A DNA stretch of 64,000 nucleotides, taken from a virus. Each line of letters starts with the position of its first letter. Position 1 is the first letter of the stretch. Below, one piece after another: positions 28,593 through 54,200 of this stretch. A model generated the notes under the pieces. The model did no database searches and was not told where the DNA came from. It worked only from the letters and a program-made list of their open reading frames with translations. The stretch lies in IMG/VR virus record IMGVR_UViG_3300009128_000002. One strand, written 5' to 3'. A program made the translations under genes and the position numbers.

Positions 28593-31500
28593 ATGTCAAA
28601 CGAAAAATTTTCACATAATCCAGCGAAGTTTTTATCAATTTTCGTTGACCGTATGGTGCCGGATTATGTCCGTGAAGACCACCCAATGTTTATCACATTC
28701 ATGCAAAAGTATTTTGAATACTTGGAGCGTGAAACAAGTGTAAATGGTGAATTAGGTGAATATACTCAAATAACAGACCTTATTGAAAATGTAGATATTG
28801 ACCATGCTTTGGATCAATTTATTCCAGAGTTTGAAAAACAATACTTATCAAGTACACCTACAACTGCTATTGACCCAACAGTTCCGACAACTGATAAAGC
28901 ATTTCTTACTAAAAATATTCAACCAACATATAGACAAAAGGGTACTGAGTCTGCATTAGACTTTATGTTTAGACGTGACTTTAATACAGAGGTTAAAGTC
29001 GCATATCCTAAAGAGTTTATGTGGAAGGCGTCTGGTTCAGATTGGTACGAACCACAATGGATAAATGTTGATGGTACTGCAACTAACACAAAGAAATTTT
29101 ATAATAAAAAGATCATAGGTCAAACATCAGGTGCAACAGCGTTTGTTGACATTGATGAAGGTATTTCTATTTCAGATTCCACAAAGTTACTATTAACAGA
29201 AGTTGATGGTTCTTTTATTCAAGGTGAAGAAATTCATGAAGATGTAGGTACATCTGGTAATGCACCAACTACTGCATTTATTACATCAGAAGGAATACGT
29301 TCTGATGGTGAGTGTTCTGTTAATGGTGGTAAATGGACAGATCAGTGGATTAATATTACTGGTCCACGACATGAAGTTAAACACGCAACAAATAATACTA
29401 TTGTTGGTGAAACTTCTGGTGCAACTGCCCACGTTGATGTGATGAATGTAAATTGGACTAGATTTAATATATCAGAAGTTCAAGGTGAATTTATTGAAGG
29501 TGAAAGAGTATATAATACATCTGCATTGAATTATAACCCCGACCCAGAAGGTAATCCATCATGGCTGCCAACTGAAAGTTTTTGTTCATCAAATAATGAG
29601 TGGCCATTAGGTACATTTCTAACTGAAAGAGAATGTACTAATGCCATGCATCCAGAAGCAGATGATCCAACTTCTGTTCATTATGGTGAATCGTCACATT
29701 TATTTTGGTTTCCTTTCCTTACTGTAACTAAAGGGGTACAAACTGTTGAAAATAGTTTTTTAGAAGTAGGAACAACACAACCAACTACACGTGAAGAATG
29801 TTTAAATTTATTAGATCAACCAAACGTAGACACTGCAGTTTGGGTGCCTAATGGTAGTTGGTTAGACTCTTCAGCGTTCTTATCTTCAGACCGTAAGTTA
29901 CAGGATAATGAATATTACCAAGATTATTCATATGTAATTAAGTCAGACGTTCCTATTCAATCTTACCGTGAAGTATTAAAGAAATTAGTTCACCCAGTAG
30001 GACTTAAATTATTTGCTGAATTTGCATTCCAATCGTCAGTAGATATGACGGTTGAAATTCCAACGGATTATGTTAAGTTACAAATTTTCTTATTCTCTTA
30101 TCTTGATGTTGCAATGGATATATGGGATAATGAATCGGAACAGCATGGTACACTTGGACACGCACATGAAGGATTTGGTGTTTATTTAGATAAAGGTTTT
30201 GAAGAATATGTAATCGAAATGATGTCTGCCTTAGAAGCCAGTGGACAATTAATTCCAGCAGAAGATTGGGATAAACCTTCAGATCACTTATCAGTAAACC
30301 TTGAGATTGATGGTGGTATTATTGGTACAACAGTTAGGGAGAAATTGTACACAGTTTCTTGGATGAATGATGATATCCAAAACCAATTGATTGCATTCCC
30401 AGAAACTACAATGCTCGAGTTTACTAAACAACTTAAAGTATTACCTATTGATGAATTCCCACCTGCAACACAGGAATTAGAGATTGTAGATAGTTTAGAT
30501 TCAACTACAGATGGTCGAATGATTAGTTGTGACCTTTGGGAACTTGGTGTATTTAAATCAATGCGTAAGGTATTGGAGTTTATTGACTCTTTCATGCCAG
30601 AGGCAGAATATGCACCTGAAAAATCATATGCTTATTTTGAAGCAAATAGAGAATCTGGAAGAATACAAAACATTTATGGTAAAACAAATGATGTAATTGA
30701 TTCAGTACATATTGGTGCATTTGATGAAGAAGTTGGTAATAGAATTCACTCACACGGTAGAGAAGATGGTTTCGCTCCGTTAGTAGAAACTGTAATTACA
30801 AAAGGTTTAGAACTACCTGTTATGGATGTTGGTGCATCTGCATTCCACGTACATTATTTTAATGGTGAAGAAATTAAAAACTTTACAAGACATGGAAAAC
30901 CAGTAACTGCTCGTGGTATGAACCACAACGAGGCAAGAAGACTAATTGACAGAGATTACTTTGAAATTCCTCATATGCACGGTGCTAACCTTGTATGTGG
31001 TGGTATTATGACTCCGCCTTTATGGGGTGACTGGGTAGATTCACAACAAGACCCACGTTATAATGGTATGGGAGAATGTTTTAATTCTCAATACGATAAT
31101 CCTACAGATTGTATTTCGTCATACGGTGGAAACCCTATGTTCTGGATGCCTCCTATGTGTTCTAATATGAGTAATATGGATCAATCTGTTTGTGAAGATA
31201 TGGGCGATACTTGGGTGGCAAATCCACCTTCTGCTTGTTCGGACGGAACATCACCTGACCATATGCAATGTGAGGCTGCTGGTGGAACTTGGACTTGGGA
31301 AACACCTAGTTATTGTACTTCATCTGAAGCGTCGTGTAATGCAGTTGGCCATTCATGGGGTTACTTCACATTAGAATCGTTACCTCCAATGAAAGGACAC
31401 GTTTCATATTTCGTTAAAGGTGAATTAGTAGACAGACAACGTGGACGATTTGCCGACCCACTTACACGTGAACAAGCAAGACAACTTATTGACGGTGATG

Positions 31501-34500
31501 TTGCTTCGGTTACTCTTTATGATAATGTTGGTTATTTAGACGATGAAGGTCACGTATTTACAGACGAACAAGATATTACTATTGGTGGTACTATTACTAA
31601 CATTCGTGGTGAAATTACAAGTGGTCACTATCACGAATATGAAGTAACTTACGACCCCGATTGGAAAGAACACACAGATTGGCAGAACAATCCACTAACA
31701 CACGGTTTTGTTTACACACCAATAACTACTTGGTTATGTTTTAACTATGACCCATCATTACCAGTAGATCCTACTGTTATGGGTGGTATGGATTTCTTAG
31801 GAAACCCTTGGCCACAGAACGTATTTATGGATGTGCCTGATTCTTATGTTGGTGGTTTCTTAATGAACCCAGATATTACATTACAACATAATCAAGTTTG
31901 GCCAGAGGTTTTAAATCCTAATGTGGACTTTGTTGAAATATATTCATCAAATCATATTGCTCAAGTGCCTGGAGTTGGTGCAACTGGTGATTTAATTGGT
32001 GTTGATTCTTTAGGTACTGATACTGATATTGTGGTTGTAGAAGCATTTCCTTCTTCAGTACAAACAGACACGGTTGCTATTGTTGACCAATCTGGTATCA
32101 TTAAGTTAATGAATGAGAATGATGGTACTAAGACTACCTTTATGGATCTTACTTCATTGCAACATACTATTGGTTTAGGTCCGTTTGCGAACTATGACGA
32201 ACGTGGTGTTCTTGGTTTATGTTTCCACCCTCAATTTGATACAAATGGTAAATTTTACGTTTATTACATGACTGAACAAGGTGGTGGTACAGGCGCTTGG
32301 GGCTTCCCATTATCGACTACTGTTATATCAGAGTTTGTTACTGATGCAGATAAACTTACTTGTACAGATTTATCTACTGAAAGAAACTTATTTACTATTC
32401 CACAACCAGACTTTAATCATAATGGTGGTGAACTAGTATTCGGACCAGACGGTATGTTGTATATCGGACTTGGTGATGGTGGTTCTGCAGGTGATACTTC
32501 TTCAATGGAAGGTCATGGTGGACACGGTGTTTATGGTAATGCACAAAACCCTACAAATTTATTAGGTACTATTTTAAGAGTAGATGTTACAGAAGATACT
32601 GTTAATAGTATGCCGTACACTATTCCTTCTGATAACCCATTTATCAATTCAATTTATAAAGAAGGTCAACCAGAAGCAACTTCATTTAGACCTGAAATTT
32701 ATGCTTATGGATTTAGAAATCCGTGGAGATTCTCATTTGCTCAAGATGGCAAGTTGTGGTGTGCTGATGTTGGACAAGACAAGTTTGAAGAAATCAACAT
32801 TGTAGAAGCAGGTGGAAACTACGGTTGGAGAGTAATGGAAGCATACCACGAGTATGAAGAAGACCAAACAATCATCGACCAAATTGCCATTGATTTAGGA
32901 CACACAAATACATTTGATTACTTAACAAGTTTAAAAGAACCTATTCACGAATATTCACACGGAACTGGTATATCTATATTGGGTGGATTTGTTTATAAAG
33001 GGTCTATTACAGAATTACAAGGTAAATACATATTTGGTGATTGGTCAACCACTTGGACAGGTACAAGTGGTCATTTATACACATTAAGTGAAAATTTTGA
33101 TGGGAACTCTGCCCACTTTAATGTTCTACCGAATGCAATAAATGGGTCAACACATAGTCATACGGTTGACTTGACAGGAGCACACGTACAGTTTCTTAAA
33201 GATAACCCAGGCAGTCCTGTTGTACAAATACAATCAGATACAGTTCATTCAGAATTCTACCTCCATACATTTACTATTATTTGGAGTTCTGAAAATCAAG
33301 AGTTTGTTTTAATTGGTCAAACTAATCCTGAAGGACATGATGTATTAGAATTTGTAGAGTATGGAACTGATTTAACATATGACAGAACACCACTATCTAT
33401 TTGGGATCCGACTACTGAAATTGTTGATTTAACAACAATGGGCGAGTCTATTCTTACTATGGGTGAGACTAATGATGGTGAAATTATATTTACTACTAGA
33501 ACTGGTATTGATACTTTCCAAGGTTCTGGTGTAGGTAATACATCAATGTATAAAATTACAGATTCTTATAATTCTGAAGATATACCTACTGCAAATAACC
33601 AGATACCTTCAACAGAAACTGCTCATATACACGGTTACGAAGTAACGTATGACGAGGAGAATTTATTCCAGGCAGTTGAAGTTTCAGATATTGAAATGCA
33701 AAACTATGATGCATTCTGGCCAATTTGGTCTTGGAATGATCCTGCATCACATATTCATCCAGTAAACAGTGCTTGGAGTGGTGAAACAGATACACAAACA
33801 TTACTTGGTTCTTCTGCAGGTTGGTATTATAATGAAGACGAAGAACAGTGGATGCCATATGATATTGGTGCAGATACGCCTTGGGCACCACCAGTAGAAG
33901 AGGATACTTCATATACGTACATTGAAACTGCTCCATCTGTTGCTATTTTAGGTGCTAACGAGTATGGTGAAAATACACATATACATTACTTCGACTCGTC
34001 TGTATTAGATACTTATGGTACAAACCAAGGACGTCTATCAACACCATTAACTAGATTGCAGGCAGAAGAACTTGCAAACGGTGTTGTTAATGAAGTTACT
34101 ATTTATTCATCAATTAGTGATAGTGGTTCGCATTTACATTACCACGAGTTTAAGGTTTTATGGAATCCTGCAACACAACAATTCCTTGCACAAGAGGTTG
34201 GTGAGTATAGGGATCTTATGGGGACTGGTGAATGGACTATAATTTTAGATGAACAAAAGAACCACGAACACACATTAACTGTAAATGGTATCACTACTAA
34301 CCTTGGTTGGAATGGTACTCCGTTATTTACAGCACCTGATGTTACACTAGGTCTTGCCCACGATTGGGATAACCTTGAAGGTAATAAACCAGATCATTTA
34401 CATTCATTTAACGGTACAGATCTAGATACTATTGGTGTTAATGCAGGACGTATTTCTGAAGCACTGACAGATGAGCAAACAACAGACTTAATTAATGGTG

Positions 34501-36164
34501 ATGTTGAATCGGTTATGTTATATTCTTCAATTGCGAACGGTGATCATTATCATGGTATTAGAGTTACATATGATGATGTTGGTTTAGCATTTATTGCCGA
34601 AGATGTTGAACAGTGGGTATCAGAAGATGGTGCTCAATTTCAATCATTAACACCTAGAACACACGCACATACTACAGAAATATCGAATCAATTATCTATT
34701 AATGGTTTTAACCAAGAACTGAATAGTAACGATTTACCTGTATTTGCTTCGCCTGGTTACCCATACCCTGGCGGTACACACCCTCATTTCCACAACGGAA
34801 CTGTTGTTGGACCATTCGCTTGGAATAATGAAATTGATTATGCCGACGGTTTAAGTGTTCAAAACGCAATGGACTTGATTAATGGTGTTGTAGAAGAAGT
34901 TATTATTTACGATTCTATTGAGGGTGCTCACTTCCACGACTATACAGTTAAGTATGATGATGTTGAAAATAAATTCTATTGTACTAATTCAATAACTTGG
35001 ATTCGTGGTGGTATTGAAGATATTACACAAGATCCATTAAAATATTACGTATCTGTTGTACTAAACGTATCAGAAGGACTTCATTGGCATAACTTGACTA
35101 TTGAATGGAATCCAAACGACGAAACATTGCCTCAACAAACTGGCGGTGCTGTTTATGTGACTAGAGTTGTAACGACTCCAGAAGTATTAACGTCAGACCC
35201 ACAAACGTCTATTGATACTAGTTCTACCGAGTTGAATCCAATCGTAGAGACTCTTACTGATACACCAAATGTAGGAGACACCACTGAAATTACTAAGTTC
35301 TTAGATAACGTAACTACAACAACTACTGTTACTACAACGGTTGTTACTACTGTTACTACTGAAACTTACTATTCAGATGGTACTATGGAAACTGTTGTTG
35401 GTAACCCACAGACTACTACTGAACAAGATACTTCTTCTACAACAGAACAAGTTGAAGATATGGCAGAACGTCAAACTAGAATTAATGGTATATTACAATC
35501 AAACAATGCCCCTATAATTTGGATTCAAGGAACGTTTATTGACGGTGAAGGTACACATGACCACTTATTATACACAGGTTGTACTTTGGATACGGTTGGT
35601 CCATTCTCAGGTAGAATGTGTGAACCTATTACTGTTGGACAGGCAAATGAGTTGATTAATGCACAAGATGTGAATTATGGAATTATTTTCTACGATTCAC
35701 CAAATGGTGCGGATAGTCACTATCACGGATATACAATTAAGTTTAATCCATACATAGGAACAGATGGTGAGTTTGTAGTTGAACCATTAAACCAATATGA
35801 CCAAATACCAGGCACAGGAACTACTATACATAAGTTCTTATTGACTGGTGGTTTCCATGACCATGACTATTGGTTGAGTGTTGCAGAATACACACAACTT
35901 GTTACTGGATCTAACATAACGACTCAACAAAGGGATACAATTCACGCACATTTATATACACACGACGTTACAATTGGTTATTCTGGTGGTCAATATAATT
36001 TATTAAATCAAACTAATAACCTTGATGGTCATAACTTGATTTCATATGTTGGTTCATTAGCTAGTGGTGGACAATGGTCAATTAGTACACAAGGTTCTGG
36101 TCTTGGTGACCATATTCATACAACTATTGTTGATGAAACAAACGTGTGGCCAACAAGTATTTAA
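28593..36164 (+). CDS. gp7: giant gp7-like baseplate wedge protein with inserted glucose/sorbosone dehydrogenase-family propeller, His-pair modules and Cys repeats
   Basis: N-terminal gp7 motifs (P.YVRED.P.F..F...YF, KGT, LQD..YYQDYSYVIKS, HPVG); lies between gp6 and gp8; ERG.LG..FHP.F, NHNGG.L.FGPDG.LYIG.GDGG, G.RNPWR, GGNYGW. Confidence 0.88.
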   Translation: MSNEKFSHNPAKFLSIFVDRMVPDYVREDHPMFITFMQKYFEYLERETSVNGELGEYTQITDLIENVDIDHALDQFIPEFEKQYLSSTPTTAIDPTVPTTDKAFLTKNIQPTYRQKGTESALDFMFRRDFNTEVKVAYPKEFMWKASGSDWYEPQWINVDGTATNTKKFYNKKIIGQTSGATAFVDIDEGISISDSTKLLLTEVDGSFIQGEEIHEDVGTSGNAPTTAFITSEGIRSDGECSVNGGKWTDQWINITGPRHEVKHATNNTIVGETSGATAHVDVMNVNWTRFNISEVQGEFIEGERVYNTSALNYNPDPEGNPSWLPTESFCSSNNEWPLGTFLTERECTNAMHPEADDPTSVHYGESSHLFWFPFLTVTKGVQTVENSFLEVGTTQPTTREECLNLLDQPNVDTAVWVPNGSWLDSSAFLSSDRKLQDNEYYQDYSYVIKSDVPIQSYREVLKKLVHPVGLKLFAEFAFQSSVDMTVEIPTDYVKLQIFLFSYLDVAMDIWDNESEQHGTLGHAHEGFGVYLDKGFEEYVIEMMSALEASGQLIPAEDWDKPSDHLSVNLEIDGGIIGTTVREKLYTVSWMNDDIQNQLIAFPETTMLEFTKQLKVLPIDEFPPATQELEIVDSLDSTTDGRMISCDLWELGVFKSMRKVLEFIDSFMPEAEYAPEKSYAYFEANRESGRIQNIYGKTNDVIDSVHIGAFDEEVGNRIHSHGREDGFAPLVETVITKGLELPVMDVGASAFHVHYFNGEEIKNFTRHGKPVTARGMNHNEARRLIDRDYFEIPHMHGANLVCGGIMTPPLWGDWVDSQQDPRYNGMGECFNSQYDNPTDCISSYGGNPMFWMPPMCSNMSNMDQSVCEDMGDTWVANPPSACSDGTSPDHMQCEAAGGTWTWETPSYCTSSEASCNAVGHSWGYFTLESLPPMKGHVSYFVKGELVDRQRGRFADPLTREQARQLIDGDVASVTLYDNVGYLDDEGHVFTDEQDITIGGTITNIRGEITSGHYHEYEVTYDPDWKEHTDWQNNPLTHGFVYTPITTWLCFNYDPSLPVDPTVMGGMDFLGNPWPQNVFMDVPDSYVGGFLMNPDITLQHNQVWPEVLNPNVDFVEIYSSNHIAQVPGVGATGDLIGVDSLGTDTDIVVVEAFPSSVQTDTVAIVDQSGIIKLMNENDGTKTTFMDLTSLQHTIGLGPFANYDERGVLGLCFHPQFDTNGKFYVYYMTEQGGGTGAWGFPLSTTVISEFVTDADKLTCTDLSTERNLFTIPQPDFNHNGGELVFGPDGMLYIGLGDGGSAGDTSSMEGHGGHGVYGNAQNPTNLLGTILRVDVTEDTVNSMPYTIPSDNPFINSIYKEGQPEATSFRPEIYAYGFRNPWRFSFAQDGKLWCADVGQDKFEEINIVEAGGNYGWRVMEAYHEYEEDQTIIDQIAIDLGHTNTFDYLTSLKEPIHEYSHGTGISILGGFVYKGSITELQGKYIFGDWSTTWTGTSGHLYTLSENFDGNSAHFNVLPNAINGSTHSHTVDLTGAHVQFLKDNPGSPVVQIQSDTVHSEFYLHTFTIIWSSENQEFVLIGQTNPEGHDVLEFVEYGTDLTYDRTPLSIWDPTTEIVDLTTMGESILTMGETNDGEIIFTTRTGIDTFQGSGVGNTSMYKITDSYNSEDIPTANNQIPSTETAHIHGYEVTYDEENLFQAVEVSDIEMQNYDAFWPIWSWNDPASHIHPVNSAWSGETDTQTLLGSSAGWYYNEDEEQWMPYDIGADTPWAPPVEEDTSYTYIETAPSVAILGANEYGENTHIHYFDSSVLDTYGTNQGRLSTPLTRLQAEELANGVVNEVTIYSSISDSGSHLHYHEFKVLWNPATQQFLAQEVGEYRDLMGTGEWTIILDEQKNHEHTLTVNGITTNLGWNGTPLFTAPDVTLGLAHDWDNLEGNKPDHLHSFNGTDLDTIGVNAGRISEALTDEQTTDLINGDVESVMLYSSIANGDHYHGIRVTYDDVGLAFIAEDVEQWVSEDGAQFQSLTPRTHAHTTEISNQLSINGFNQELNSNDLPVFASPGYPYPGGTHPHFHNGTVVGPFAWNNEIDYADGLSVQNAMDLINGVVEEVIIYDSIEGAHFHDYTVKYDDVENKFYCTNSITWIRGGIEDITQDPLKYYVSVVLNVSEGLHWHNLTIEWNPNDETLPQQTGGAVYVTRVVTTPEVLTSDPQTSIDTSSTELNPIVETLTDTPNVGDTTEITKFLDNVTTTTTVTTTVVTTVTTETYYSDGTMETVVGNPQTTTEQDTSSTTEQVEDMAERQTRINGILQSNNAPIIWIQGTFIDGEGTHDHLLYTGCTLDTVGPFSGRMCEPITVGQANELINAQDVNYGIIFYDSPNGADSHYHGYTIKFNPYIGTDGEFVVEPLNQYDQIPGTGTTIHKFLLTGGFHDHDYWLSVAEYTQLVTGSNITTQQRDTIHAHLYTHDVTIGYSGGQYNLLNQTNNLDGHNLISYVGSLASGGQWSISTQGSGLGDHIHTTIVDETNVWPTSI

Positions 36165-36177
36165 TAGGTGGTTTTAT

Positions 36178-36198
36178 TATAAATAAGTCGTATAAATA
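36178..36198 (+). promoter_or_regulatory. tandem T4-type late promoters
   Basis: TATAAATA at 36178-36185 and 36191-36198. Confidence 0.75.
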
Positions 36199-36256
36199 GT
36201 TTCAGTTTTATAAGAAACATTAAATAAATTAAGATTAATTTTTAGGAGTAAAGAAA

Positions 36257-37252
36257 ATGGGTGCTATTGTAACCAGTAAATTCAGAACACAAAACTTGAT
36301 GGTGTTCATTGACCAGTTCAAAACTACTGGTAATGTAGCCACAGATAATTACTTATACCTTGGATTTGGACGTTCAAATGCTTGGGCAGATGATGCTCAA
36401 GGTAATGACGAATCTTCAGGTCAATTCACACTACCCGATCCATTAGATGAAGATGAACATCAGTATTGGTTGGATATTGTTGGTGCAAAGCGTATTCAGA
36501 ATGATGATATTTCGCCTGTACTTCCACGTGTAGACTGGAGTGTTGGCGATACACTTGCGTTTGATGGTGATGTTGCCAATGGTATTACTGGTATTGATGA
36601 GCCTGGTCGTTCTTTCGTATCAAAAACAGGTTCACACTCAACAGTAATGAATTCAAATTACCTTATTTACCAATGTGTTGGTGAGCCTTCTACTGGTAAA
36701 TGTTATATTGGTGGTGTTTATGATAGTGGTACTGCATCTTCTCGTGCTGTTTGTGAAGCAACTACTGGTGGTCTTTGGTTACCTACTGGTGCTTCTGAGG
36801 AACCTACTGGACATAACAATGGTGCAGATATTTCAACTTCAGATGGTTACGTTTGGAAATATCTATACACTTTAGAATTAAATGACATTATTAACTCAAC
36901 TACAAATGACTGGATGCCAGTTATTACAGGTAGTGCAGTGTTACCAGATTCAGACCAATCATTATACGGTGATGTTGATGCAATCTTTACTGCTAAATGC
37001 CACCACGGTCTAATTCACGTTAGATTGGAAACTTCAGATGGTTTCCCAGAAAACGATGACTTCCGTCAAATTGGTTTATTACGTAATCCAGAACTGACAG
37101 GTGGTGGTACACGTGCTCAAGGTTCAGTATATGCAAATGCAGATACCCAAATGGAGACAGACTCAGGTCAGTTAATTTACCTTGAAAATAGACGTGCTAT
37201 TACACGTGCCGCTGACCAGATTGAAGATTTGAAACTTGTAGTTGAATTCTAA
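36257..37252 (+). CDS. gp8: baseplate wedge subunit gp8
   Basis: AIVT.KFR, Y.G.GR...W, DGYVWKYLY, DFRQIGL..NP, SG..IY.ENR..I.RA.DQ.ED.K.V.EF. Confidence 0.92.
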   Translation: MGAIVTSKFRTQNLMVFIDQFKTTGNVATDNYLYLGFGRSNAWADDAQGNDESSGQFTLPDPLDEDEHQYWLDIVGAKRIQNDDISPVLPRVDWSVGDTLAFDGDVANGITGIDEPGRSFVSKTGSHSTVMNSNYLIYQCVGEPSTGKCYIGGVYDSGTASSRAVCEATTGGLWLPTGASEEPTGHNNGADISTSDGYVWKYLYTLELNDIINSTTNDWMPVITGSAVLPDSDQSLYGDVDAIFTAKCHHGLIHVRLETSDGFPENDDFRQIGLLRNPELTGGGTRAQGSVYANADTQMETDSGQLIYLENRRAITRAADQIEDLKLVVEF

Positions 37253-37269
37253 ATCTGCTAAATAGATAT

Positions 37270-37294
37270 AAGGTGTTCATATAGAGCACCTTTT
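37270..37294 (+). terminator. rho-independent terminator
   Basis: AAGGTGTTC-ATATA-GAGCACCTTTT. Confidence 0.6.
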
Positions 37295-37322
37295 AATGAT
37301 TTATTGATAGGAATAGAATAAA

Positions 37323-42719: not shown

Positions 42720-42732
42720 AGGAGAATGTAAT

Positions 42733-42936: not shown

Positions 42937-42945
42937 AGGGTTATT

Positions 42946-43149: not shown

Positions 43150-43176
43150 TAATTAATATTTAAGGAAAGAACACCA

Positions 43177-46100: not shown

Positions 46101-49100
46101 AGAGTATGAAGTGGTTGCCGATTTGGCATCTTACAGATTCCAAGTTGACCGTGATATTACTAATCATATTGGTTCGCCTTATGTTGAAGGTATAGAAATT
46201 CTTTGGAGTCGTCCTAATACAGTTAAATCAAACAATCATGGTTTATCTGTTGGTGATATTGTACAGTTGCCTTCTGGTGAACAACCATATACACCATCTG
46301 AATTGCCTGGTGCTATGAACGACCATACGGTTGTTGCTTTAGGTGATGGTTATGGTCCGACAGATAATATGGAAATTACAGTAGATACTAACACTACTGT
46401 AACTTGGAACGACCCTACACTTACAACAGTTGAAGGTGCTCAAGACTCGCCTTGGTTATGGTCTTGGTGGGATCATACTGCAGATTCTTACTTCCCTTAT
46501 CAAAGAGCAGGTGCCACTTATGACAACTTCGGTGGTAATGATGGTATTAACGGTGGTTTTGAATTATTCCGTGGTGGTACATATAAGTTTACTAATAATG
46601 CTTGGAATCCATCTGGTCATATTACATTAAACGACCCAGTAACTGGTAACCCAACACCTATGTATATGCACGCCGCTGGTGTTAAAGCAATGCTTGGTGC
46701 TGGGTGGGATAACCTTGTTCAAGCAGGTATGGTACAAAACGATGGAAACAATTGTGTTTCTATGAGAGCAAATCACGGTCTAACAATTACTGCTGGTGAC
46801 CATAATGACTTCGTTAATACTGAAGAAGAGCCAGGAACGTGGGTAGGTTCAGAACCATTCCCTGTTTGTATGGGACTAGGTGGTTGGTGTGAAGAATTAG
46901 ACGTTGATGGTTGGTATTATAATGGTGAAGACGTTAAATCTAACTGTGAAGCACTTAACCCTACTAATGACCCAGGCTTAGCACAATGGAGAGAATCACA
47001 ATTTATTGGTAACTTCTCAAAAGAATTTACTTGGACTATTCCTGAAGATTTCGGTTTGACAGGTTCAGATGGTGCAACTGGATTAGGTCCTTTTGTACCA
47101 CCTGGCGAGGTTAATGGTGCTTACCATATGACACATGATGGTGGTTTATACCGTTTTGATAAATCTGGTATGATTGAAGGTACTAACAGAACGATTAATT
47201 TATATCGTGGTGGTACATACACGTTTAAGATTAACTCTGCTGGACACCCACTTTACGTTACAACAGATGACGGTTCGCATTTCACGCCAGGTGCATACTT
47301 TGGTGAATACTTATTAGGTGTTCAAAACTCACGTGCAGAAGAAGGTGCTGGTGTTCAGACTGAAGGAACTGATATGTGGGGTAATGACGATTCTGGTGTT
47401 CCAAAATACGAAGAGTTAGTATGGACTGTTCCAGAAGTTGCGCCAGATACTATGTACTATCAGTGTGCATGGCACGCTTCAATGATGGGACAATTCAATA
47501 TCCTTGATATGCCTGTTATTAACGCTGGTGATGATATTGTTGTTTACTTCCATCACGGTCAAGACAATATGTACACTCCATTACATATTAAGGATAAGAT
47601 TGTTGTTGATAATGGTACATCTACAGATTACTTCCAAGTACAACCTGCCCCAGAAAATGCGTTCCCAGTAAAAGGAACTCAAGCAGATATTTTAGGTACT
47701 AATAATGCACTTACTGCTACTGGTCCTGGCGCTGTACCAGAAATACAGGCAATGAATATTGAATTAGGTACTGTATCTTATATCGACCCTCTTGCGATGG
47801 TGCCAGGTATTGGTTCTGAGCAATTCCTTGTTACTAATGATATTGGTGGACTTGCTAAAGTTTACTTCAGTGTAGATATTGATCAACGTTCTGATATTAT
47901 TTTAGACAATGTAACATTTAAAGAAGTTGTATGGACTGAAACAGGTTCTTGGCAGATTCAAGGTGGTTCTGCATTTACTAATACTACAGATGCCGCTTAT
48001 ATTGAGCAGATTGTGACTGGTTCTATTTCCGAAGGTGTTACATACGAAGTTAAATACGATATTATTGAATCATTTAAAGACCAATATGGTGCTGAAATTG
48101 GTTCTATTACTGCAGAATTGCGTGGTGACACGATAGTTCAAGGTATTTCTAACACTTTAGTTGGTCATTATTCTGAAACTCTAGTTGCTCCTGCAAATAC
48201 TACTATTCTTAGATTAGTTAATAGTGGTAAAGGTAAGATTGATAACATTTCTATTAAAGAACGTGTTACTGGTCAGAATGCTTGGTCTATGGGTGAAGGT
48301 TGGACATCTGATGGTGCAAAAGCATATTTAGATGGTTCTATTGCTTCTTCTACTGAAGTTTCTCAAACAGTTTCTATTGATACTGGTAAACTATACGAAG
48401 TTAAATACTCACTTGCAGATGTAGATAACGATAATAATGGTATGACTGGACGTATGAGAGTAACATTGGGTACTAACCCAAATCAGTTAATTTCTAATTG
48501 GAACTTCGATATTACAGATACTGATTTAGTTAATTGGACTAATTCAAGTGATACTGTTCAAATTATCGATGGACAACTGATATTTAACTCTGCTTCTAAT
48601 GATACTTCTACTTACACACTATCTAACGCATTAGTTGGTGGTGTTAAATATGAATTAACTATTGATTGTGATTTAATTGAAGATAATATCCTTAACTTCC
48701 AAGTTGGACCTGGCCCTACTGGTACACATCCACACACTTTCCAAATGACTGAGTCGCAGGGTCAATGGTTACAAGAAAGCACAAATAACAGTTTAACATT
48801 CGAGCAAACCGATGGTTATCATGCAGAAACATATACACACGAATTTACAATTAAGTGGTTAAATGTTGGTGGTATTAATCAATATACGATAACAGAACAA
48901 TCAAATCCTGAAGGACACGATGAATTAACGTTGGTTTCTACTACTATTAATACACCTAGTATTGATTTTGTAATCAACGGAAACACAATGGGTACTATTA
49001 ATAAGTCTGGTATTCGCCATATTAACTTTATTGGTGAAATTACTACAGATTTAGTATTAAATATGAACGATTCTGGTGCTATTAATAGTGTTAAATTGGT

Positions 49101-51141
49101 TGAGGAAGATATTCCTGTTATTGATTACGATACTACTGGTTTAAACCAAGAGGGTGAGAAAGTATATCACGTTCGTGCTGGTTCATATGATCAAAAGATT
49201 CACTTTATCGGTGATGTTGATAATAACAACCCAGAGGAAAATAACCCATACTATTCTAATGTTGGTTTTGAAGGTTCTATTGATAATGTTTCAGTACGTG
49301 AAATTATTGAAAATTGGACGTTTGCTTCACAACAAGATGGTGTTGCATATGTTGATCAAAATACTAAACAAATTTATACTTCTGGTACTGGTCCAAACAA
49401 CCGTGGTATTGCACATATCAATTTCGAAATTGAAGCCAATATGAGTTACAAGGTTGCAGTTAAAGTTGACAGACCTACAGATTCTATTCTTAAACTAGGT
49501 CCAACTCCAGATAGTTCGGAGTATGGTTCTTTAGTTATAGAAGATACTGACACTAATGGACTATTCGACGAAGCACGTGACTTTGTATTCAAATCACCTG
49601 TTGCTGGTACTTGTTACTTGACACTTTCTACTACTGGAAATGGTTACACATATTGGGACGATGTTTCAGTTAAGACAATTCCTAACCTTTCATCTGACGA
49701 GTATTTATTACTTGCTCGTTCTATGAATGTTATGGGTGTTCCAATTGGTGGTGAAGAAAGATGGAATTCTAATCATTTAGATATGGAAAACGCAGACTAC
49801 ACTGGACAACCTATTTGTGGTCATAGAACTATGGAATCATTCGGTGAGTCTGTAATTGAAGATTACTACGACGTTAATAGACGTGGTAACGAAATTATGA
49901 ACCCACCTATTTCATTATCTACATTTGATGTTACTACTGGTCACAGAAGTGTTGCTTCTATTGTTCCTTCTTGTACTACTAATTTTGGTACTGAAGAATA
50001 TACAATTAAAGCCGCTTGTGAACAGATTGTTGGTGTTTGGTATCCTACAGACCCTGCTCATTGTAGTAATATAGATTACACAACTCAAATAGATTGTGAA
50101 ACTGTATTTGGTTGGTGGACTGTTGCAACGCCAGGTTCGTGTTCTGACTCGTTATATACATCTGAATATAGTTGTAATGGTGCTGGTACTTGTTCTGACC
50201 CTTCGTACTCGTTTGAATATACTTGTACTGCCTCTGGTACTTGTTCTGACCCAGTATATAATGATAACCAATTAGGTTGTATTGATTCTGGTGGTTCTTG
50301 TTCTGATGGAACTTCTACTACTTCTGGTGAGTGTTACGAGACGAACGGTACTTGTTCCGATGGTGTTAGTACAACTAATACTGAATGTGGAACTGCTGGT
50401 GGTACTTGGACACCAACTAACGTTTGGACTGCTCTAAATACTTGGACTAATGCTGGTAATACTTGGACGTCTGCAGGTAATACGTGGACGCCTGGTGACC
50501 CAGGCTATTGTTCTGATGGTATTCAAACATCTCAAGCAGTTTGTGAAGGACCTAGAGGAACTTGGATTGAAGAAGACTTCGAGCATTGTACTACTGATAT
50601 ACCATTCTTAACGGTTAACAATCAAACAGATTGTGAAGCACCTCGTGGTACATGGGATGTGACTGTTGTTGATGAAATGGGTGGTCAATGGGTAGAGATT
50701 GTTGGTGATGGTATTGATATGGATTACACAGTAATTTTAGGTGGTGTTGAACAAACTAACGTTCAGAACATCAACTTACCATATAAGATTAAGTTTGAGG
50801 TTGCTCCAACTACACCACTTGGTGAACAAGTATTAACTGTTACTAACTCTGACGGTGATACTGCTTCATTTACTGATGCACCATTTACAGTTACTGATCA
50901 ATTGCGTATTATTACGGTAGTTGATATTAATACTATTACTGGTGCTGGTTTTGTTGCAGATACGGTAGTTGAGTTTATTTCATCAGGTACTACTACGGTT
51001 GCTGATACACCTGCCGTTACGGTAGTTGATGCAAATAACATTACAGTTTCACCTACACTTAGTGCAGGAACTTACGATGTTAGAGTAACAAACTTAGACG
51101 GTCAAACGTTTACTGAAGTAACTGCATTAACAATTGTATAA
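43177..51141 (+). CDS. giant virion/fibre protein with CBM-like, cupredoxin, His-pair, Cys-repeat and C-terminal IPT/TIG-like domains
   Basis: 2654 aa; ELI.NG.FD CBM-like starts, HN...YHCTFHP, GHP...YYQCAWHASM, G.GY...P repeats, GTYDVRVTN.DG. Confidence 0.85.
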   Translation: MAHYTGHTFTLTELNTIEQQKSDFLDSLNIKLSSPDLLVKDLALMLKSLEVMENLEHLQEYKDFIINVAQKSAEFVNPIELITNGGFDVTYNTTNLVQNSSFDNDAFEVELVKNSGFDVPVDLARPWANGIAYLFDIFTTEGTEVIRAYTDGQQTAVAWFETVLKPNTQYKFSYDLTINNVNWDLPNGGFNMVDIPSTDKMVFSEAGGGPDPQQIVISIIEDENLVLPTCNGEVVEWDNTVDYNLALGEMENACKANDAVWNYDPVSSSFYCDDDGDGYPGNGAVDQAACYANNAVWDEGELTNPNTQQHDIVPYHVEAREGDTLIFTNPVGNYLVHNAVSDDNISFTSPDLNPGETWNWVVDGYHDIYYHCTFHPLEEGRMTTKTNHRYVYSIDHGLNPGDTVKMAINYGSMVSLPSLSNSYFINLLLPNTLSTTGGAPYTAVESLYHDLSIGNVISMQSGDVETNPEAGVPMIVTFAGGVDAETISATASANVTAGVVSGLELTANGQNYTSKPLLYITGGGGSGATGTLEFDGGLSGIELSEVGAGYQSTPTIQISAPDVGQLGPDSSCTDPTYTDQTSCETALETWYEVINTIQAEASCTITPTGEIDTITVTNMGSGYHTPPTITFIGGSPTVAGAANAIIDGSVYSVTLTSGGSGYGSGDGSVGVGERRWEDYIITAVAKGNERVDVFFDDVNQIGHTHTAEITPAEYVQIQASTATMIVTSEDAGHTHTATFDWDASANNGGGAMFLVGMTGSHTHGMENYYDITGGTKVELVNFGHYHEILITEADEATLKAAPLQNVTQDIDGTWSATSGNTIIRTSDFGTSDPQHFHTVEFGCLDPATDTYLIIEVDQHIHDMGRVWYPGSNQFTVGKYDFALGGDDLNPSAIATPFTDINGYVKKEKGIESDAHGLIPGDRVHFENVYNGIHHGNTNYWVDYVIDADHFALTEVVIYPLENSAGTTPTIHNVIEEYEVVADLASYRFQVDRDITNHIGSPYVEGIEILWSRPNTVKSNNHGLSVGDIVQLPSGEQPYTPSELPGAMNDHTVVALGDGYGPTDNMEITVDTNTTVTWNDPTLTTVEGAQDSPWLWSWWDHTADSYFPYQRAGATYDNFGGNDGINGGFELFRGGTYKFTNNAWNPSGHITLNDPVTGNPTPMYMHAAGVKAMLGAGWDNLVQAGMVQNDGNNCVSMRANHGLTITAGDHNDFVNTEEEPGTWVGSEPFPVCMGLGGWCEELDVDGWYYNGEDVKSNCEALNPTNDPGLAQWRESQFIGNFSKEFTWTIPEDFGLTGSDGATGLGPFVPPGEVNGAYHMTHDGGLYRFDKSGMIEGTNRTINLYRGGTYTFKINSAGHPLYVTTDDGSHFTPGAYFGEYLLGVQNSRAEEGAGVQTEGTDMWGNDDSGVPKYEELVWTVPEVAPDTMYYQCAWHASMMGQFNILDMPVINAGDDIVVYFHHGQDNMYTPLHIKDKIVVDNGTSTDYFQVQPAPENAFPVKGTQADILGTNNALTATGPGAVPEIQAMNIELGTVSYIDPLAMVPGIGSEQFLVTNDIGGLAKVYFSVDIDQRSDIILDNVTFKEVVWTETGSWQIQGGSAFTNTTDAAYIEQIVTGSISEGVTYEVKYDIIESFKDQYGAEIGSITAELRGDTIVQGISNTLVGHYSETLVAPANTTILRLVNSGKGKIDNISIKERVTGQNAWSMGEGWTSDGAKAYLDGSIASSTEVSQTVSIDTGKLYEVKYSLADVDNDNNGMTGRMRVTLGTNPNQLISNWNFDITDTDLVNWTNSSDTVQIIDGQLIFNSASNDTSTYTLSNALVGGVKYELTIDCDLIEDNILNFQVGPGPTGTHPHTFQMTESQGQWLQESTNNSLTFEQTDGYHAETYTHEFTIKWLNVGGINQYTITEQSNPEGHDELTLVSTTINTPSIDFVINGNTMGTINKSGIRHINFIGEITTDLVLNMNDSGAINSVKLVEEDIPVIDYDTTGLNQEGEKVYHVRAGSYDQKIHFIGDVDNNNPEENNPYYSNVGFEGSIDNVSVREIIENWTFASQQDGVAYVDQNTKQIYTSGTGPNNRGIAHINFEIEANMSYKVAVKVDRPTDSILKLGPTPDSSEYGSLVIEDTDTNGLFDEARDFVFKSPVAGTCYLTLSTTGNGYTYWDDVSVKTIPNLSSDEYLLLARSMNVMGVPIGGEERWNSNHLDMENADYTGQPICGHRTMESFGESVIEDYYDVNRRGNEIMNPPISLSTFDVTTGHRSVASIVPSCTTNFGTEEYTIKAACEQIVGVWYPTDPAHCSNIDYTTQIDCETVFGWWTVATPGSCSDSLYTSEYSCNGAGTCSDPSYSFEYTCTASGTCSDPVYNDNQLGCIDSGGSCSDGTSTTSGECYETNGTCSDGVSTTNTECGTAGGTWTPTNVWTALNTWTNAGNTWTSAGNTWTPGDPGYCSDGIQTSQAVCEGPRGTWIEEDFEHCTTDIPFLTVNNQTDCEAPRGTWDVTVVDEMGGQWVEIVGDGIDMDYTVILGGVEQTNVQNINLPYKIKFEVAPTTPLGEQVLTVTNSDGDTASFTDAPFTVTDQLRIITVVDINTITGAGFVADTVVEFISSGTTTVADTPAVTVVDANNITVSPTLSAGTYDVRVTNLDGQTFTEVTALTIV

Positions 51142-51147
51142 AATAAT

Positions 51148-51169
51148 TGAGGGTGAGCAATCACCCTCA
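51148..51169 (+). terminator. stable hairpin after the giant gene
   Basis: TGAGGGTGA-GCAA-TCACCCTCA (GNRA loop); weak U-tract. Confidence 0.55.
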
Positions 51170-51190
51170 TAAAGAATTAGAAAATAGAAT

Positions 51191-51222
51191 AACTATTATA
51201 AATAGTTGTATTATTATAAATA
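51191..51222 (+). promoter_or_regulatory. tandem late promoters
   Basis: TATAAATA at 51197-51204 (inside the inverted repeat AACTATT-ATA-AATAGTT) and at 51215-51222. Confidence 0.7.
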
Positions 51223-51260
51223 TTATTAAATAAGAATTAATTTATTGGAGATAACGAACA

Positions 51261-54200
51261 ATGTCTGTAACACTATCAACCATATCAACGCAAGTTGACC
51301 AATTTAACGATATTCCAGATATCACCTTTACTGGTATTGATATTACAGAGTTCGTTGAAGAAGTAGAAATTTATACTAACACCCCTGCAGTGATGATTCC
51401 AACTAAGTTGAACGCTATGGCGGGCAACATGAAGGCTTGGTTAAATTCAAATGTAACTACCCCATTAGAAAACCAACAAAATACGTTTAAAGATGAAGTT
51501 GTCGTAAGAACAAATACTGCTATGAATGCTGTAGAAACTTACATGAACGATGAAGTTGCTGGTTTTATTAATACTGTATTTGTTCCTTGGGCAAACGATG
51601 CCGGTACTACATTATCAACTGCTTCTAACTTATTAGAAACAAATGTAACTACTCAAATGACGCAGTTACAATCAGACTATACTATCCACGTACAGAATCA
51701 AGATGCAATTATCCAACAGGCAATTGATGATATGATTCTTCAACTTTCACAGTACACTTCTGGTGCTGCCGATTCAGGTTACTCTATCCATCAAACGAAT
51801 TTATTGATGTCAGATCTAACAATGACACGTGAGATTGGGTTTGCAGACTACAAATATACTAAAGATGGTCAAATCGCATTTGCAGAAGAAGGTGCTAATA
51901 AAACCCATCACATTGCTTACGATAAGTCAGGTAATATTATATCTTTTGGTGAGTCTATGCAAATTGACGGTGAACCACGTCCATTTGTTCAGCATCTTAA
52001 ATTGGATAAAGAATTAGGAACTGGTTCTACTTCAGTTGAAAAGGTTAAGGCATATAGTATATTTAAATCAGTTTCAGAGACTGGTATTGAATCTTTTAGA
52101 GCTACTGCTCATGAGACAGACGGTGCGCCAGGTGTTGATCTAACTATTTTGAATAATACATCAATTGCAGATACAGATAACCCAGAATTAATTATTCGTC
52201 GTGGTAACTCTAATGCATTATTATTTGATGGTATTGACGCTGGTGATATGGTTAAAGTTTCTAACCTAGATGGTACTATTTACAACGATGGTATTTCTGG
52301 TCAATATGCAGAGGATTATGAAACAGTTATGTTTACACCACATTCTTCTTACTGTCATGATGGTCTTTCTTCTGTGACAGGTTGGGGTGTTGTTGTATCA
52401 GACGGTGCATCTGGTATCGATTCAGACGGTAGTGATTTTGATGATCCAACCAAATGTGAGAACTATTCAAATGCATCTGTATCATTATTAGACGACTTCA
52501 GTAGAACTTACGAGTATGATATTGTTGGCGAGTCTTATGATACAGACCTTTCTGATGGTCTTACATATAAAGTTTCTATTACAGATGATTCTGGTGTTGT
52601 TGATACTTACGGTTATACTATTGACGCAAATAAAACATTAGGTACTGGTGCAATTTTAAATGCAGTTTATGACGATGGTGTTTCTGATGTAAATATTACT
52701 AATGGTGGTTCTAAATATTCAGAAAACACATTCGCTAGAGCATTTGATTTGGGTGCTGTTGACGTTACAGGTTCTACAGAAACTAAAGCAGAAGCGACAT
52801 TCACGTTAAGAAATGGAATGGTTGATTCTATTAAGGTAGTTGGTGGTGGTGCTGGGTATCAGGGTTTCTGGAACGTTGTTGTACCAGACGGTGGTAACGG
52901 ACACACACATAACTTACAACTTTCACAAGCAGAAATTAATACTATTAAGTCTGGTACTACAGTAGTTTCTACTACAGTAGAGGGTGGTCATTCACACGAT
53001 ATTACAATTTCATGGAATTCATTTACTGAGAATTTTGTATTTGATTCACAAGTTGGTGCCCATGATCACGGTAGTGTTGCAGATTCATATCAAATTAACC
53101 CTTCTATTACAGTTGATTTCAGTGCTGGTCTTGGTGGTAACGCAGTTGCTCATGTATTACTTACAGAAACTAATGAATTAGATAAAGTTGTTGTTACAAA
53201 CGGTGGTTCTGGTTATTTAGTAACAGATATAGTTTCTATTACTGGTGGTAACGAAACTACTTCTGGTGCAATTCAAGTATCATATGCAGACGGTGGTATT
53301 GATTCTATTTCATTAACTAATCAAGGTACTGGTTATACAGATACAACACCTAAGACAGTTTCAGTTGCTATTCAAAATAATGCATTTCAACCTTCAATTA
53401 TTTCTGCTAACGTTGGTGATACTGTTGAATTTACTAACTTAGATATAGGTGCTCATACAGTTACTAATGAAGATGGTGCATTTGATTCTGGTGATATTCC
53501 ACAGAATGCTGTGTTTAGTTACACTATTGTAGATGACACAGAATTAACAAAAGAATATAAAATTACAGATACACAGACTGGTGGTGGTGCAACTCTATGG
53601 GTTCGTGAAAATACAGTATTTGTAGATATGGTAACTTCTACTGGTGGTGGTATGCGTGGTATTGCTACGGTAAATGCTTCTGGTAATATTATTGACATCG
53701 CAGTTGACCGTCCAGGCAAAGGGTATGTTGCCACTGACACAGTTAAACCAATCGACGTTTCTGGTCCTGGCGAGGGTGCATATGCAGATGTAGTAACAAA
53801 CCGTTCTATTGATACAATTACAGTTGACAGTATTGGTTCTGGCTATTCATTAGATACAGAAATTATTATTTTCGACCCAACTGGAACACCAATTTACGAT
53901 GATTTGGGTGTTGAGATTGATCGTGTATATGGTTCTGGTGCGAGTGCAACAGCAACTATTTCTTTAGTTACAATTCCTGCCTTCTGTTCTGATGCATTGG
54001 TTACTGACGAACCTACTTGTACAACGACTGGTAATACTTGGACTGCTGAAGTACCACAAGGTGCTATTACAGAAGTTTCTGTAAACCGTGCAGGTAGTGA
54101 CTATGTAGATATAGAACTTATTATCAATGACCCTCAAGGAACTGGTTCTGGTGCTATATTAAGTACAGGAATCAACAATGTGGTTAGTGATATTAACTTT

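What the first reader, a model, noticed from the sequence alone, without database searches (positions are those of the whole stretch)
30840..53075. Repeated His-pair module with three HxH per copy: possible single-chain six-His metal site
Seen: a 60-110-aa unit HxH..LT..Q...L..G.V..V....S....HxH...V.(W/Y)...HxH recurs. In gp7: THIH/HYH/HEH (about 33975-34270), DHLH/DHYH/THAH (34390-34670), HPH/HFH/HWH (34776-35090), HDH/HYH/HIH (35553-36120, with another copy nested inside). In the 2654-aa protein: HTH/HTH/HTH (45280-45465), HYH/HFH/HIH (45523-45760) and a variant at 48724-48920. In the 1190-aa protein: HTH/HSH/HDH (52900-53070). Known: in T4 gp37 one HxH from each of three chains gives octahedral Fe sites (basis of the Ferrojan-horse hypothesis). 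Inference: three HxH in one chain could build the same geometry without trimerisation, giving many metal sites per virion.
Basis: partly seen in the sequence, partly recalled or inferred. Interest (0 to 1): 0.78.

Follow-up and report, generated by a model that had tools for sequence, protein, structure and literature searches.

The report
Unnamed six-histidine domain in phage baseplate
Three giant tail and baseplate proteins of an uncultured marine T4-like phage carry about ten copies of a small, uncatalogued domain in which the only unchanging residues are six histidines. It is most likely a metal site built by one chain rather than by three, but metal binding and geometry remain unmeasured.

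Summary
His-x-His (HxH) pairs are 5 to 10 times over-represented in gp7 (24 seen, 3.1 expected), the 2654-aa protein (7 vs 1.4) and the 1190-aa protein (3 vs 0.3). They lie in a recurring 69-117-aa unit.

- **Conservation:** in 50 non-redundant copies from this phage and 57 related IMG/VR contigs, the only invariant columns are the six histidines.
- **Variant form:** it has five His (HxH / H-x5-H / GH) and is related to the canonical form (hhalign probability 90-94%).
- **Known families:** Pfam, NCBIfam, PHROGs and PDB sequences give no significant match. A profile search of 1.84 billion proteins found 11 hits, almost all orthologues.
- **Fold:** AlphaFold2 gives a compact strand-helix-three-strand domain (pLDDT 78.5, core above 90) with no fold match (best Z 4.0).
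- **New here:** the one outside hit led to about 95 small lipoproteins of Polyangia and Bdellovibrio-like bacteria with twin-arginine-type signals. They carry the same three pairs in circularly permuted order (hhalign 95-97.5%; shuffled controls at most 35%).

Best reading: a single-chain metal-binding domain that is not a relative of the trimeric gp37 site. Metal identity, number of ions and geometry are untested, because the tools gave no coordinates. The scan had already noted this module on related phage DNA.

The parts
28593..36164 (+). gp7-like baseplate wedge protein, 2523 aa; carries most of the modules in its C-terminal third
   Evidence: PF23786 Baseplate_wedge E 3.5e-10 and PF07995 GSDH E 1.9e-32; phrog_17744 E 1.4e-52; lies between gp6 (26826-28577, phrog_219 E 1.7e-156) and gp8 (36257-37252, phrog_977)
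33960..34292 (+). Canonical six-His module gp7-A (aa 1790-1900; HIH / HYH / HEH)
   Evidence: HMM domain score 101.3; alignments A1 and A4
34377..34691 (+). Canonical module gp7-B (aa 1929-2033; HLH / HYH / HAH)
   Evidence: HMM score 93.5; A1, A4
34761..35111 (+). Canonical module gp7-C (aa 2057-2173; HPH / HFH / HWH)
   Evidence: HMM score 102.9; A1, A4
35538..36140 (+). Canonical module gp7-D (aa 2316-2516; HDH / HYH / HIH), split by a nested variant module between pairs 2 and 3
   Evidence: domain envelope 2316-2515
35838..36065 (+). Variant (five-His) module nested inside gp7-D (HDH / HAHLYTH / GHN)
   Evidence: Alignment A2; HMM score 110
33135..33362 (+). Variant module in gp7 (aa 1515-1590; HSH / HSEFYLH / GHD), directly after the GSDH propeller
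   Evidence: A2; HMM score 131
30828..30992 (+). Partial copy in gp7 (aa 746-800; HVH, helix, HMH); the second pair is not kept in relatives
31380..31682 (+). Decayed copy in gp7 (aa 930-1030). The first pair reads H-V-S here but HVH/HQH in L007, L012 and L013. The second pair HYH is kept.
33606..33782 (+). Half copy in gp7 (aa 1672-1730; HIH...HIH, matching pairs 2 and 3); both pairs are kept in all relatives
43177..51141 (+). 2654-aa tail/fibre-region protein carrying two canonical modules and one variant module
   Evidence: phrog_460 E 3.6e-11
45265..45486 (+). Canonical module (aa 697-770; HTH / HTH / HTH)
   Evidence: HMM score 55.1; all His invariant in 27 orthologues
45508..45780 (+). 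Canonical module (aa 778-868; HYH / HFH / HIH)
   Evidence: HMM score 86.2; AF2 topology strand-strand(HxH1)-helix-strand-strand(HxH2)-strand(HxH3), block pLDDT 63-89
48709..48936 (+). Variant module (aa 1845-1920; HPH / HAETYTH / GHD)
   Evidence: A2; HMM score 124
51261..54833 (+). 1190-aa tail/baseplate-region protein with one canonical module
   Evidence: phrog_460 E 3.7e-17 and phrog_438 (baseplate wedge subunit) E 2.2e-06
52884..53090 (+). Most compact canonical module (aa 542-610; HTH / HSH / HDH); the copy that was modelled
   Evidence: AF2 pLDDT 78.5, pTM 0.64; helix 15-22, strands 27-33, 36-45, 50-61

Best explanation
The repeat is an uncatalogued, independently folding alpha+beta domain: about 60 aa at its core, up to 117 aa with loop insertions. 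Its function rests on six histidines arranged as three HxH pairs. Pairs 2 and 3 lie at the start and the end of the two strands of a hairpin. Pair 1 lies on a further strand in the tandem model, but in an unstructured N-terminal stretch in the compact model. The most likely reading is that one chain folds so that the three pairs form one metal-binding cluster. That cluster could hold one six-coordinate ion or two ions with three His each. The metal would be loaded in the host cytoplasm and would act as a staple that stiffens these accessory domains of the baseplate wedge (gp7) and of two neighbouring giant tail proteins. It works like the HxH 'histidine cage' of phage fibres and spikes, but it is built within one chain and on an unrelated fold.

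Shown here: the module, its conservation, its predicted topology, its absence from catalogues, and its permuted bacterial relatives. Inferred: convergence of the His pairs, metal binding, and a structural role. If each complete gp7 module bound one ion, gp7 alone (six chains per T4-type baseplate, my knowledge) would carry about 36 ions per virion.
For: 1. The six His are the only invariant columns in 6 window copies at 17-31% identity and in 50 non-redundant copies from 57 related contigs. All 12 His of the tandem pair are invariant in 27 orthologues.
2. HxH excess over shuffles: 24 vs 3.07, 7 vs 1.44, 3 vs 0.29.
3. AF2 gives a compact domain, pLDDT 78.5 with blocks of 93-95 in the core. The same strand order appears independently in a paralogue.
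4. Spacing between the pairs varies from about 20 to over 100 aa, and one module holds a whole nested module. This fits loops of a globular domain, not an in-register trimeric fibre.
5. Remote relatives are about 95 small bacterial proteins. The 12 in GTDB genomes have an RRxFL/RKxFL signal, a lipobox Cys and a Gly-rich linker, then one roughly 80-aa domain with three His pairs.
6. The phage and bacterial profiles match at hhalign probability 95.4%, E 2e-8 over pairs 1-2. The match rises to 97.5%, E 7.9e-12 over all three pairs once the phage pair-3 segment is moved to the N-terminus. Reversed or shuffled controls score at most 25.3 against 47.1 and 62.9, with probability at most 35%. All three pairs survive a circular permutation, which is what one composite site predicts.
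7. Export by the twin-arginine route is typical of proteins that take up a cofactor before export (established knowledge).
Against: No metal, no coordinates and no His-His distances were obtained, so convergence of the six side chains is not shown. In the compact model the first HxH lies in a stretch without regular secondary structure at lower confidence (first 10-residue block pLDDT 61). The tandem model is poor overall (pLDDT 53.4). Some copies have lost a pair while the domain persists: gp7 aa 930-1030 reads H-V-S here, so the site is dispensable in places. The twin-arginine signal was read by eye; the NCBIfam scan gave no signal-model hit. The neighbours of the bacterial genes are unrelated housekeeping genes and give no hint of metal handling.
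Confidence: 0.6

Rival explanations
1. Inter-chain sites as in T4 gp37, gp12 and the P2 gpV apex. The host proteins would be trimers, and each HxH would meet its two symmetry mates, giving three separate six-His cages per module rather than one site per chain.
For: The GxHxH motif is the same, and PF03335 (phage tail fibre repeat) gives weak hits (E 0.012) in 2 of 6 copies. The oligomeric state of the 2654-aa and 1190-aa proteins is unknown. Inter-chain HxH cages are the only documented use of this motif in phage tails (bioRxiv 10.1101/2023.02.25.529910; PMC11705849).
Against: gp7 is a single chain per wedge in T4 (my knowledge). The predicted fold is a helix plus a three-stranded meander, not an extended intertwined beta structure. 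The spacing between pairs is highly variable and includes a nested domain. The relatives are single-domain lipoproteins that keep exactly three pairs through a circular permutation.
Confidence: 0.1
2. Single chain, but not one octahedral site. The six His would form a two-metal centre with three His per ion, as in type-3 copper or di-zinc sites. That centre might be redox-active or ligand-binding rather than purely structural.
For: Three His per ion from neighbouring strands is the commonest His-only geometry in beta proteins (textbook: carbonic anhydrase; the HxH motifs of multicopper oxidases). The variant subtype has five His plus a conserved Q-[TS]-D, which fits 3+3 as well as 6. Two cupredoxin-like segments with H...C-x2-H...M ligand patterns lie in the same 2654-aa protein (by eye). 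Twin-arginine export is common for copper proteins (established knowledge).
Against: Nothing distinguishes one ion from two. The cupredoxin-like segments do not reach Pfam thresholds, and their co-occurrence with the module is no evidence of coupling.
Confidence: 0.2
3. The histidines are not metal ligands. They would serve receptor or glycan binding, pH sensing or catalysis, or they would be buried packing residues of a purely proteinaceous domain.
For: No metal has been measured. Some copies have lost a pair. The domains sit on host-facing baseplate and fibre proteins, where binding modules are common.
Against: Six invariant His as i, i+2 pairs at strand ends, with everything else free to vary at about 25% identity, is the signature of a metal site rather than of a binding surface. 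The same six are kept in non-viral lipoproteins of unrelated bacteria.
Confidence: 0.1

Closest known systems
Inter-chain HxH 'histidine cage' of phage fibres and spikes (T4 gp37 needle with seven Fe, T4 gp12, P2 gpV / phi92 gp138 apex, R-pyocin fibres)
   Same: Both are HxH pairs, often preceded by Gly, on beta strands of extracellular tail proteins. Both have six His per presumed site, with conservation comparable to that of a catalytic site. The likely role is a structural metal staple.
   Different: The known cages take one HxH from each of three symmetry-related chains in an elongated trimer. Here three HxH lie in one chain of a small predicted alpha+beta domain. There is no significant sequence match (PF03335 only E 0.012) and no fibre appears among the fold hits. 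The host protein gp7 is not trimeric in T4.
Unnamed family of small three-HxH lipoproteins with twin-arginine-type signals in Polyangia, Bdellovibrio, Pseudobdellovibrio and Oligoflexia (found here; no Pfam, NCBIfam or PDB entry)
   Same: The three His pairs are the same, as is the helix motif L-T-x-x-D/Q-x-x-x-L-x-x-G and the strand before pair 2. hhalign probability is 95-97.5% with clean controls.
   Different: The order is circularly permuted: the third pair is N-terminal in the bacteria and C-terminal in the phage. The bacterial domain adds a conserved Cys near each end. The Bdellovibrio-type branch has H-x3-H in place of the first HxH. These are free-standing exported proteins rather than modules of a virion protein. 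Their function is also unknown.
YmaF family (Pfam PF12788), small uncharacterised proteins of Bacillota
   Same: The ESM Atlas places two YmaF clusters next to the compact module by language-model features (0.90 and 0.87), beside an unnamed Myxococcota cluster at 0.91.
   Different: hmmscan gave no PF12788 hit at E up to 10 for any phage or bacterial copy. The Atlas recognition value was low (1472). A second module gave no usable named hit. This is a lead only.
HxH-based His clusters of beta-sheet metalloproteins (carbonic anhydrase zinc site; HxH motifs of multicopper oxidases; Cu,Zn superoxide dismutase)
   Same: All are single-chain sites in which an HxH on one strand and His residues on neighbouring strands hold the metal (textbook knowledge, not tested here).
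   Different: The folds are unrelated and much larger, and they are enzymes. No sequence or fold similarity was detected here.

Membership tests
gp37-type inter-chain HxH histidine cage / Pfam PF03335 Phage_fiber repeat | G-x-H-x-H motif on a beta strand of a tail protein | tested here: met
   All canonical copies carry three HxH, often as GHxH; strand assignment comes from AF2
gp37-type inter-chain HxH histidine cage / Pfam PF03335 Phage_fiber repeat | Significant match to the family profile | tested here: not met
   PF03335 matched only 2 of 6 copies, best E 0.012 in a scan run at max E 10. A whole-protein scan at E 0.01 listed no such family.
gp37-type inter-chain HxH histidine cage / Pfam PF03335 Phage_fiber repeat | Each site is built from one HxH of each of three identical chains | not testable with these tools
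   The oligomeric state cannot be read from sequence. Indirect arguments (gp7 stoichiometry in T4, variable spacing, a nested domain, single-domain bacterial relatives) speak against it.
gp37-type inter-chain HxH histidine cage / Pfam PF03335 Phage_fiber repeat | Elongated intertwined beta fold like PDB 2XGF | tested here: inconclusive
   The AF2 model is a helix plus a three-stranded meander. No fibre appears among the Foldseek or VIA hits (best E 0.3; best Z 4.0), but absence from these lists does not exclude a fold.
gp37-type inter-chain HxH histidine cage / Pfam PF03335 Phage_fiber repeat | Bound Fe or Zn in octahedral six-His coordination | not testable with these tools
   No coordinates and no metal modelling were available.
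Three-HxH lipoprotein family of Myxococcota and Bdellovibrionota (unnamed) | Profile-level homology covering the His pairs | tested here: met
   hhalign 95.4%, E 2e-8 in native order over pairs 1-2. It rises to 97.5%, E 7.9e-12 over all three pairs after permutation. Controls reach at most 35%. A first, cruder comparison gave 70.7%.
Three-HxH lipoprotein family of Myxococcota and Bdellovibrionota (unnamed) | Same linear order of the three pairs, twin-arginine-type lipoprotein signal, flanking Cys pair | tested here: not met
   The phage modules are permuted, are internal to giant proteins, and lack the Cys pair.
YmaF (PF12788) | Match to the Pfam profile | tested here: not met
   No hit at E up to 10. 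PF12788 also found nothing in the Bdellovibrio genome that encodes a homologue.
T4 gp7 baseplate wedge protein (the carrier protein, not the module) | Profile match to the gp7 family, and position between gp6 and gp8 | tested here: met
   PF23786 scored 40.2 bits against a cut-off of 27. phrog_17744 gave E 1.4e-52, with the gp6 and gp8 families on either side.

The most novel reading that the evidence does not exclude
The module and its bacterial relatives would be a new single-chain 'His6 cage' fold that binds a trace metal stoichiometrically. Virions of a widespread uncultured marine T4-like clade would then each carry dozens of protein-bound metal ions (at least about 36 from gp7 alone). 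The lipoproteins of predatory bacteria, with their twin-arginine-type signals, would be a previously unseen class of periplasmic metalloprotein. The circular permutation would give a natural example of one metal site rebuilt from either chain end.
Probability: 0.35. Interest if true: 0.75.

Novelty: new variant of a known kind. Interest (0 to 1): 0.6.

Why it matters
HxH metal cages in phage tails are known only as three-chain sites, and they underlie the idea that marine phages hold a share of scarce trace metals. A one-chain version could be placed on any protein, trimeric or not. It could also be multiplied in tandem, as it is here, which would change how metal load per virion is estimated from sequence.

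The module is small (about 60 aa) and its relatives come from bacteria that have cultured members (Bdellovibrio). The claim is therefore directly testable by expressing the domain and measuring its metal content. The domain is absent from Pfam, NCBIfam and PHROGs, so it currently goes unannotated in marine viromes.

Tried and rejected
- **Nucleotide and translated BLAST:** the gp7 module region found nothing among 50,697 GenBank phage records.
- **Family and sequence scans:** Pfam, NCBIfam and PHROGs scans of whole proteins and of single modules, and PDB sequence searches with two profiles, gave only chance-level hits. These were a His-tagged MurE-type ligase and designed Kelch proteins sharing 'GHTH'.
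- **Fold searches:** searches with the 69-aa model in PDB (Foldseek), 48,161 PDB representatives (VIA-align) and BFVD gave nothing above background. Best values were E 0.3, Z 4.0 and E 0.059.
- **Complex prediction:** three copies of the module with Fe riding along returned 'no answer' (score 0.01, mark 0.42). This is neither for nor against trimerisation.
- **The search for homologous proteins with the 50-copy profile:** it added only fragments of orthologues.
- **YmaF lead from the Atlas:** it was not reproduced with a second module, and no profile match was found.
- **Gene neighbourhoods of bacterial homologues:** three loci showed no shared or metal-related partners (SDR, lipoate ligase, deaminase, SnoaL, aminotransferase, S1/P1 nuclease).
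- **NCBIfam:** it gave no twin-arginine signal hit for the bacterial proteins, so the signal is read by eye only.
- **His geometry:** I tried to deduce it from the strand registers in the DSSP strings. I dropped this because the two models imply different registers and the parity cannot be fixed without coordinates.
- **Chance or composition:** rejected by the shuffles.
Full report
**Setting.** The window is part of an uncultured marine T4-like myovirus.
- The ORF at 26826-28577 is gp6 (phrog_219, E 1.7e-156). Its nearest cultured relatives, at only 35-36% identity, are Pelagibacter phages HTVC008M and Mosig, the Methylophilales phage Melnitz, and cyanomyoviruses.
- Next come a 2523-aa gp7-like wedge protein (28593-36164; PF23786 and a GSDH-type propeller), gp8 (36257-37252), a 1798-aa DUF4815 protein, a 2654-aa protein (43177-51141) and a 1190-aa protein (51261-54833).
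- No whole genome is held for the window.

**The observation.**
- HxH counts are 24 in gp7, 7 in the 2654-aa protein and 3 in the 1190-aa protein. Shuffles of the same proteins give means of 3.07, 1.44 and 0.29, and 0, 2 and 7 of 5000 shuffles reach the observed count.
- The other 31 long ORFs of the window hold 0.39 HxH per 1000 residues, against 9.5 in gp7.
- Six copies cut from the three proteins align at 17-31% identity, and the only invariant columns are the six histidines (A1).
One copy is nested between pairs 2 and 3 of the last gp7 module. Its pattern is HxH / Q-[TS]-D-x-x-H-x5-H / [ED]-G-H-[DN] (A2). It is related to the canonical form (hhalign 90-94%, E 1e-6 to 1e-7).
- gp7 also holds three partial copies. 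In one of them the first pair reads H-V-S in this phage but is an intact HxH in three relatives, so sites can decay.

**Conservation in relatives.** Pattern scans of IMG/VR returned 57 related viral contigs covering the three genes.
- All 116 full-length canonical copies keep at least three HxH.
- After removing copies above 85% identity, 50 remain. Again the only invariant columns are the six His, at a mean column identity of 33% (A4).
- In 27 orthologues of the tandem pair in the 2654-aa protein, all 12 His are invariant.

**Is it a known family?** It is not.
- Pfam, NCBIfam and PHROGs do not cover the module, either in whole-protein scans or in scans of single copies at E up to 10.
- The only thematically related hit is the phage tail-fibre repeat PF03335, at E 0.012 in 2 of 6 copies. 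That reflects the shared GxHxH motif.
- PDB sequence searches with two profiles gave only chance hits.
- A profile search that read all 1.84 billion representative proteins found 11 hits at E up to 0.001. Eight are orthologues or fragments of the three phage proteins, one is a 4352-aa repeat protein without HxH, one is a 919-aa orthologue fragment, and one (P0014) is a 175-aa bacterial protein.
- BLAST against GenBank phages found nothing.
- I found no paper describing a three-HxH single-chain module. The literature treats HxH only as an inter-chain cage.

**Predicted structure.**
- With the 50-copy alignment, AlphaFold2 models the 69-aa copy of the 1190-aa protein at pLDDT 78.5 and pTM 0.64, with 10-residue blocks of 93-95 in the core. 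An N-terminal stretch carries pair 1. Then come a helix (15-22) and three strands (27-33, 36-45, 50-61). Pair 2 opens the second strand and pair 3 closes the third.
- A 267-aa model of the tandem region is poor overall (pLDDT 53.4). Within its second module, 10-residue blocks range from 63 to 89, and the order is the same: strand, strand with pair 1, helix, strand, strand starting with pair 2, strand ending with pair 3.
- No solved or predicted viral structure resembles the model above background.
- The tool gives no coordinates, so I could not measure whether the six side chains meet. This is the main gap.

**Bacterial relatives and a circular permutation.**
- P0014 led to 95 small proteins, mostly from metagenomes. 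Twelve lie in GTDB genomes of Polyangiaceae/Polyangia, Bdellovibrio, Pseudobdellovibrio and Oligoflexia.
- They begin with RRxFL or RKxFL, a hydrophobic stretch and a lipobox cysteine, followed by a Gly-rich linker. Then comes one roughly 80-aa domain: C...H-x-H-P-L-T-I-P...Y-x-L-E-D-G-G-T-G-H-T-H-T-x-x-L-T-x-x-D-x-x-x-L-x-x-G...S...G-H-x-H-x-C-x-I-x-C.
- The phage and bacterial profiles match over phage pairs 1-2 and bacterial pairs 2-3 (95.4%, E 2e-8). When the phage pair-3 segment is moved in silico to the N-terminus, the match extends over all three pairs (97.5%, E 7.9e-12).
- Reversed, column-shuffled and triplet-block-shuffled controls reach at most score 25.3 and probability 35%, against 47.1 and 62.9.
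- P0014 has two domains in tandem, which shows how such a permutation can arise. It also explains why only P0014 was seen by the phage-order profile.
- One composite site predicts that the third His pair can be supplied from either chain end while all three pairs are kept. Export by the twin-arginine route would fit cofactor loading before export. However, I read that signal by eye, and the NCBIfam scan gave no signal-model hit.
- The gene neighbourhoods are uninformative.

**Interpretation.** I read the module as a single-chain metal-binding domain (0.6). It would act as a structural staple on accessory domains of baseplate and fibre proteins. It is analogous to the inter-chain HxH cage but not related to it.
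- Within that reading, one octahedral ion and two three-His ions cannot be told apart.
- The inter-chain alternative (0.1) is disfavoured by gp7 stoichiometry in T4 (my knowledge), the globular prediction, the variable spacing with a nested domain, and the single-domain bacterial relatives.
- A non-metal role (0.1) fits poorly with six invariant His in an otherwise free-running sequence.
- Iron in particular, and any role in iron acquisition or the Ferrojan-horse idea, has no support here.

**Earlier notes of this scan.** Notes on related phage DNA describe the same module and reach a similar verdict. I checked their core claims independently here. The bacterial permuted family is, as far as those notes show, an addition.

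Noticed in passing
window 44083-44349 and 47134-47520 (2654-aa protein); 53349-53612 (1190-aa protein): There are cupredoxin-like segments. The first two show blue-copper ligand patterns by eye (VHNAV...YYHCTFHPLEEGRM; GHPLYV...YYQCAWHASMMG). The third lacks the Cys/His/Met end. Only the third gets Pfam hits, and both are below threshold (PF13473 E 0.0043, PF00127 E 0.0078).
   Followed up: partly
window 32088-33038 (gp7 aa 1166-1482): A glucose/sorbosone-dehydrogenase-type beta-propeller (PF07995, E 1.9e-32) is inserted in the gp7-like wedge protein. It lies immediately upstream of a variant His module.
   Followed up: no
window 49969-50660 (2654-aa protein aa 2265-2495); 31074-31365 (gp7 aa 828-925); 53979-54060 (1190-aa protein): All three giant proteins hold Cys-rich low-complexity stretches with a recurring pattern such as 'C-S-D ... 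T-W-T' (for example GTCSDPSYSFEYTCTASGTCSDP). They could be disulfide-knotted linkers.
   Followed up: no
window 44668-45170 (2654-aa protein aa 498-665) and 52695-54510 (1190-aa protein aa 479-1083): There are repeated units of about 45 aa ending in a G-G-x-G-Y-like motif (ITNGGSKYSE, VTNGGSGYLV, LTNQGTGYTD, DSIGSGYSL...). They match phrog_460 and phrog_438, and the single His module of the 1190-aa protein sits between two of them.
   Followed up: no
L058-L069 (bacterial loci), e.g. L064:5788-6204, L067:5797-6204: In the Bdellovibrio/Pseudobdellovibrio branch of the lipoprotein family the first pair is H-x-x-N-H (H-T-P-N-H-T-L) instead of HxH. A Cys near each end of the domain is conserved, so the ligand set differs between branches.
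   Followed up: partly
window 31380-31682 vs L007, L012, L013: The gp7 copy at aa 930-1030 has lost its first HxH in this phage (G-H-V-S-Y), but three relatives keep it (HVH or HQH). This is a natural series of decaying sites, useful as built-in controls.
   Followed up: partly
window 37323-42719: A 1798-aa DUF4815 protein (PF16075, E 6.9e-59; phrog_358 score 1026) lies between gp8 and the His-module proteins. It has one HxH, which is no more than chance predicts.
   Followed up: no
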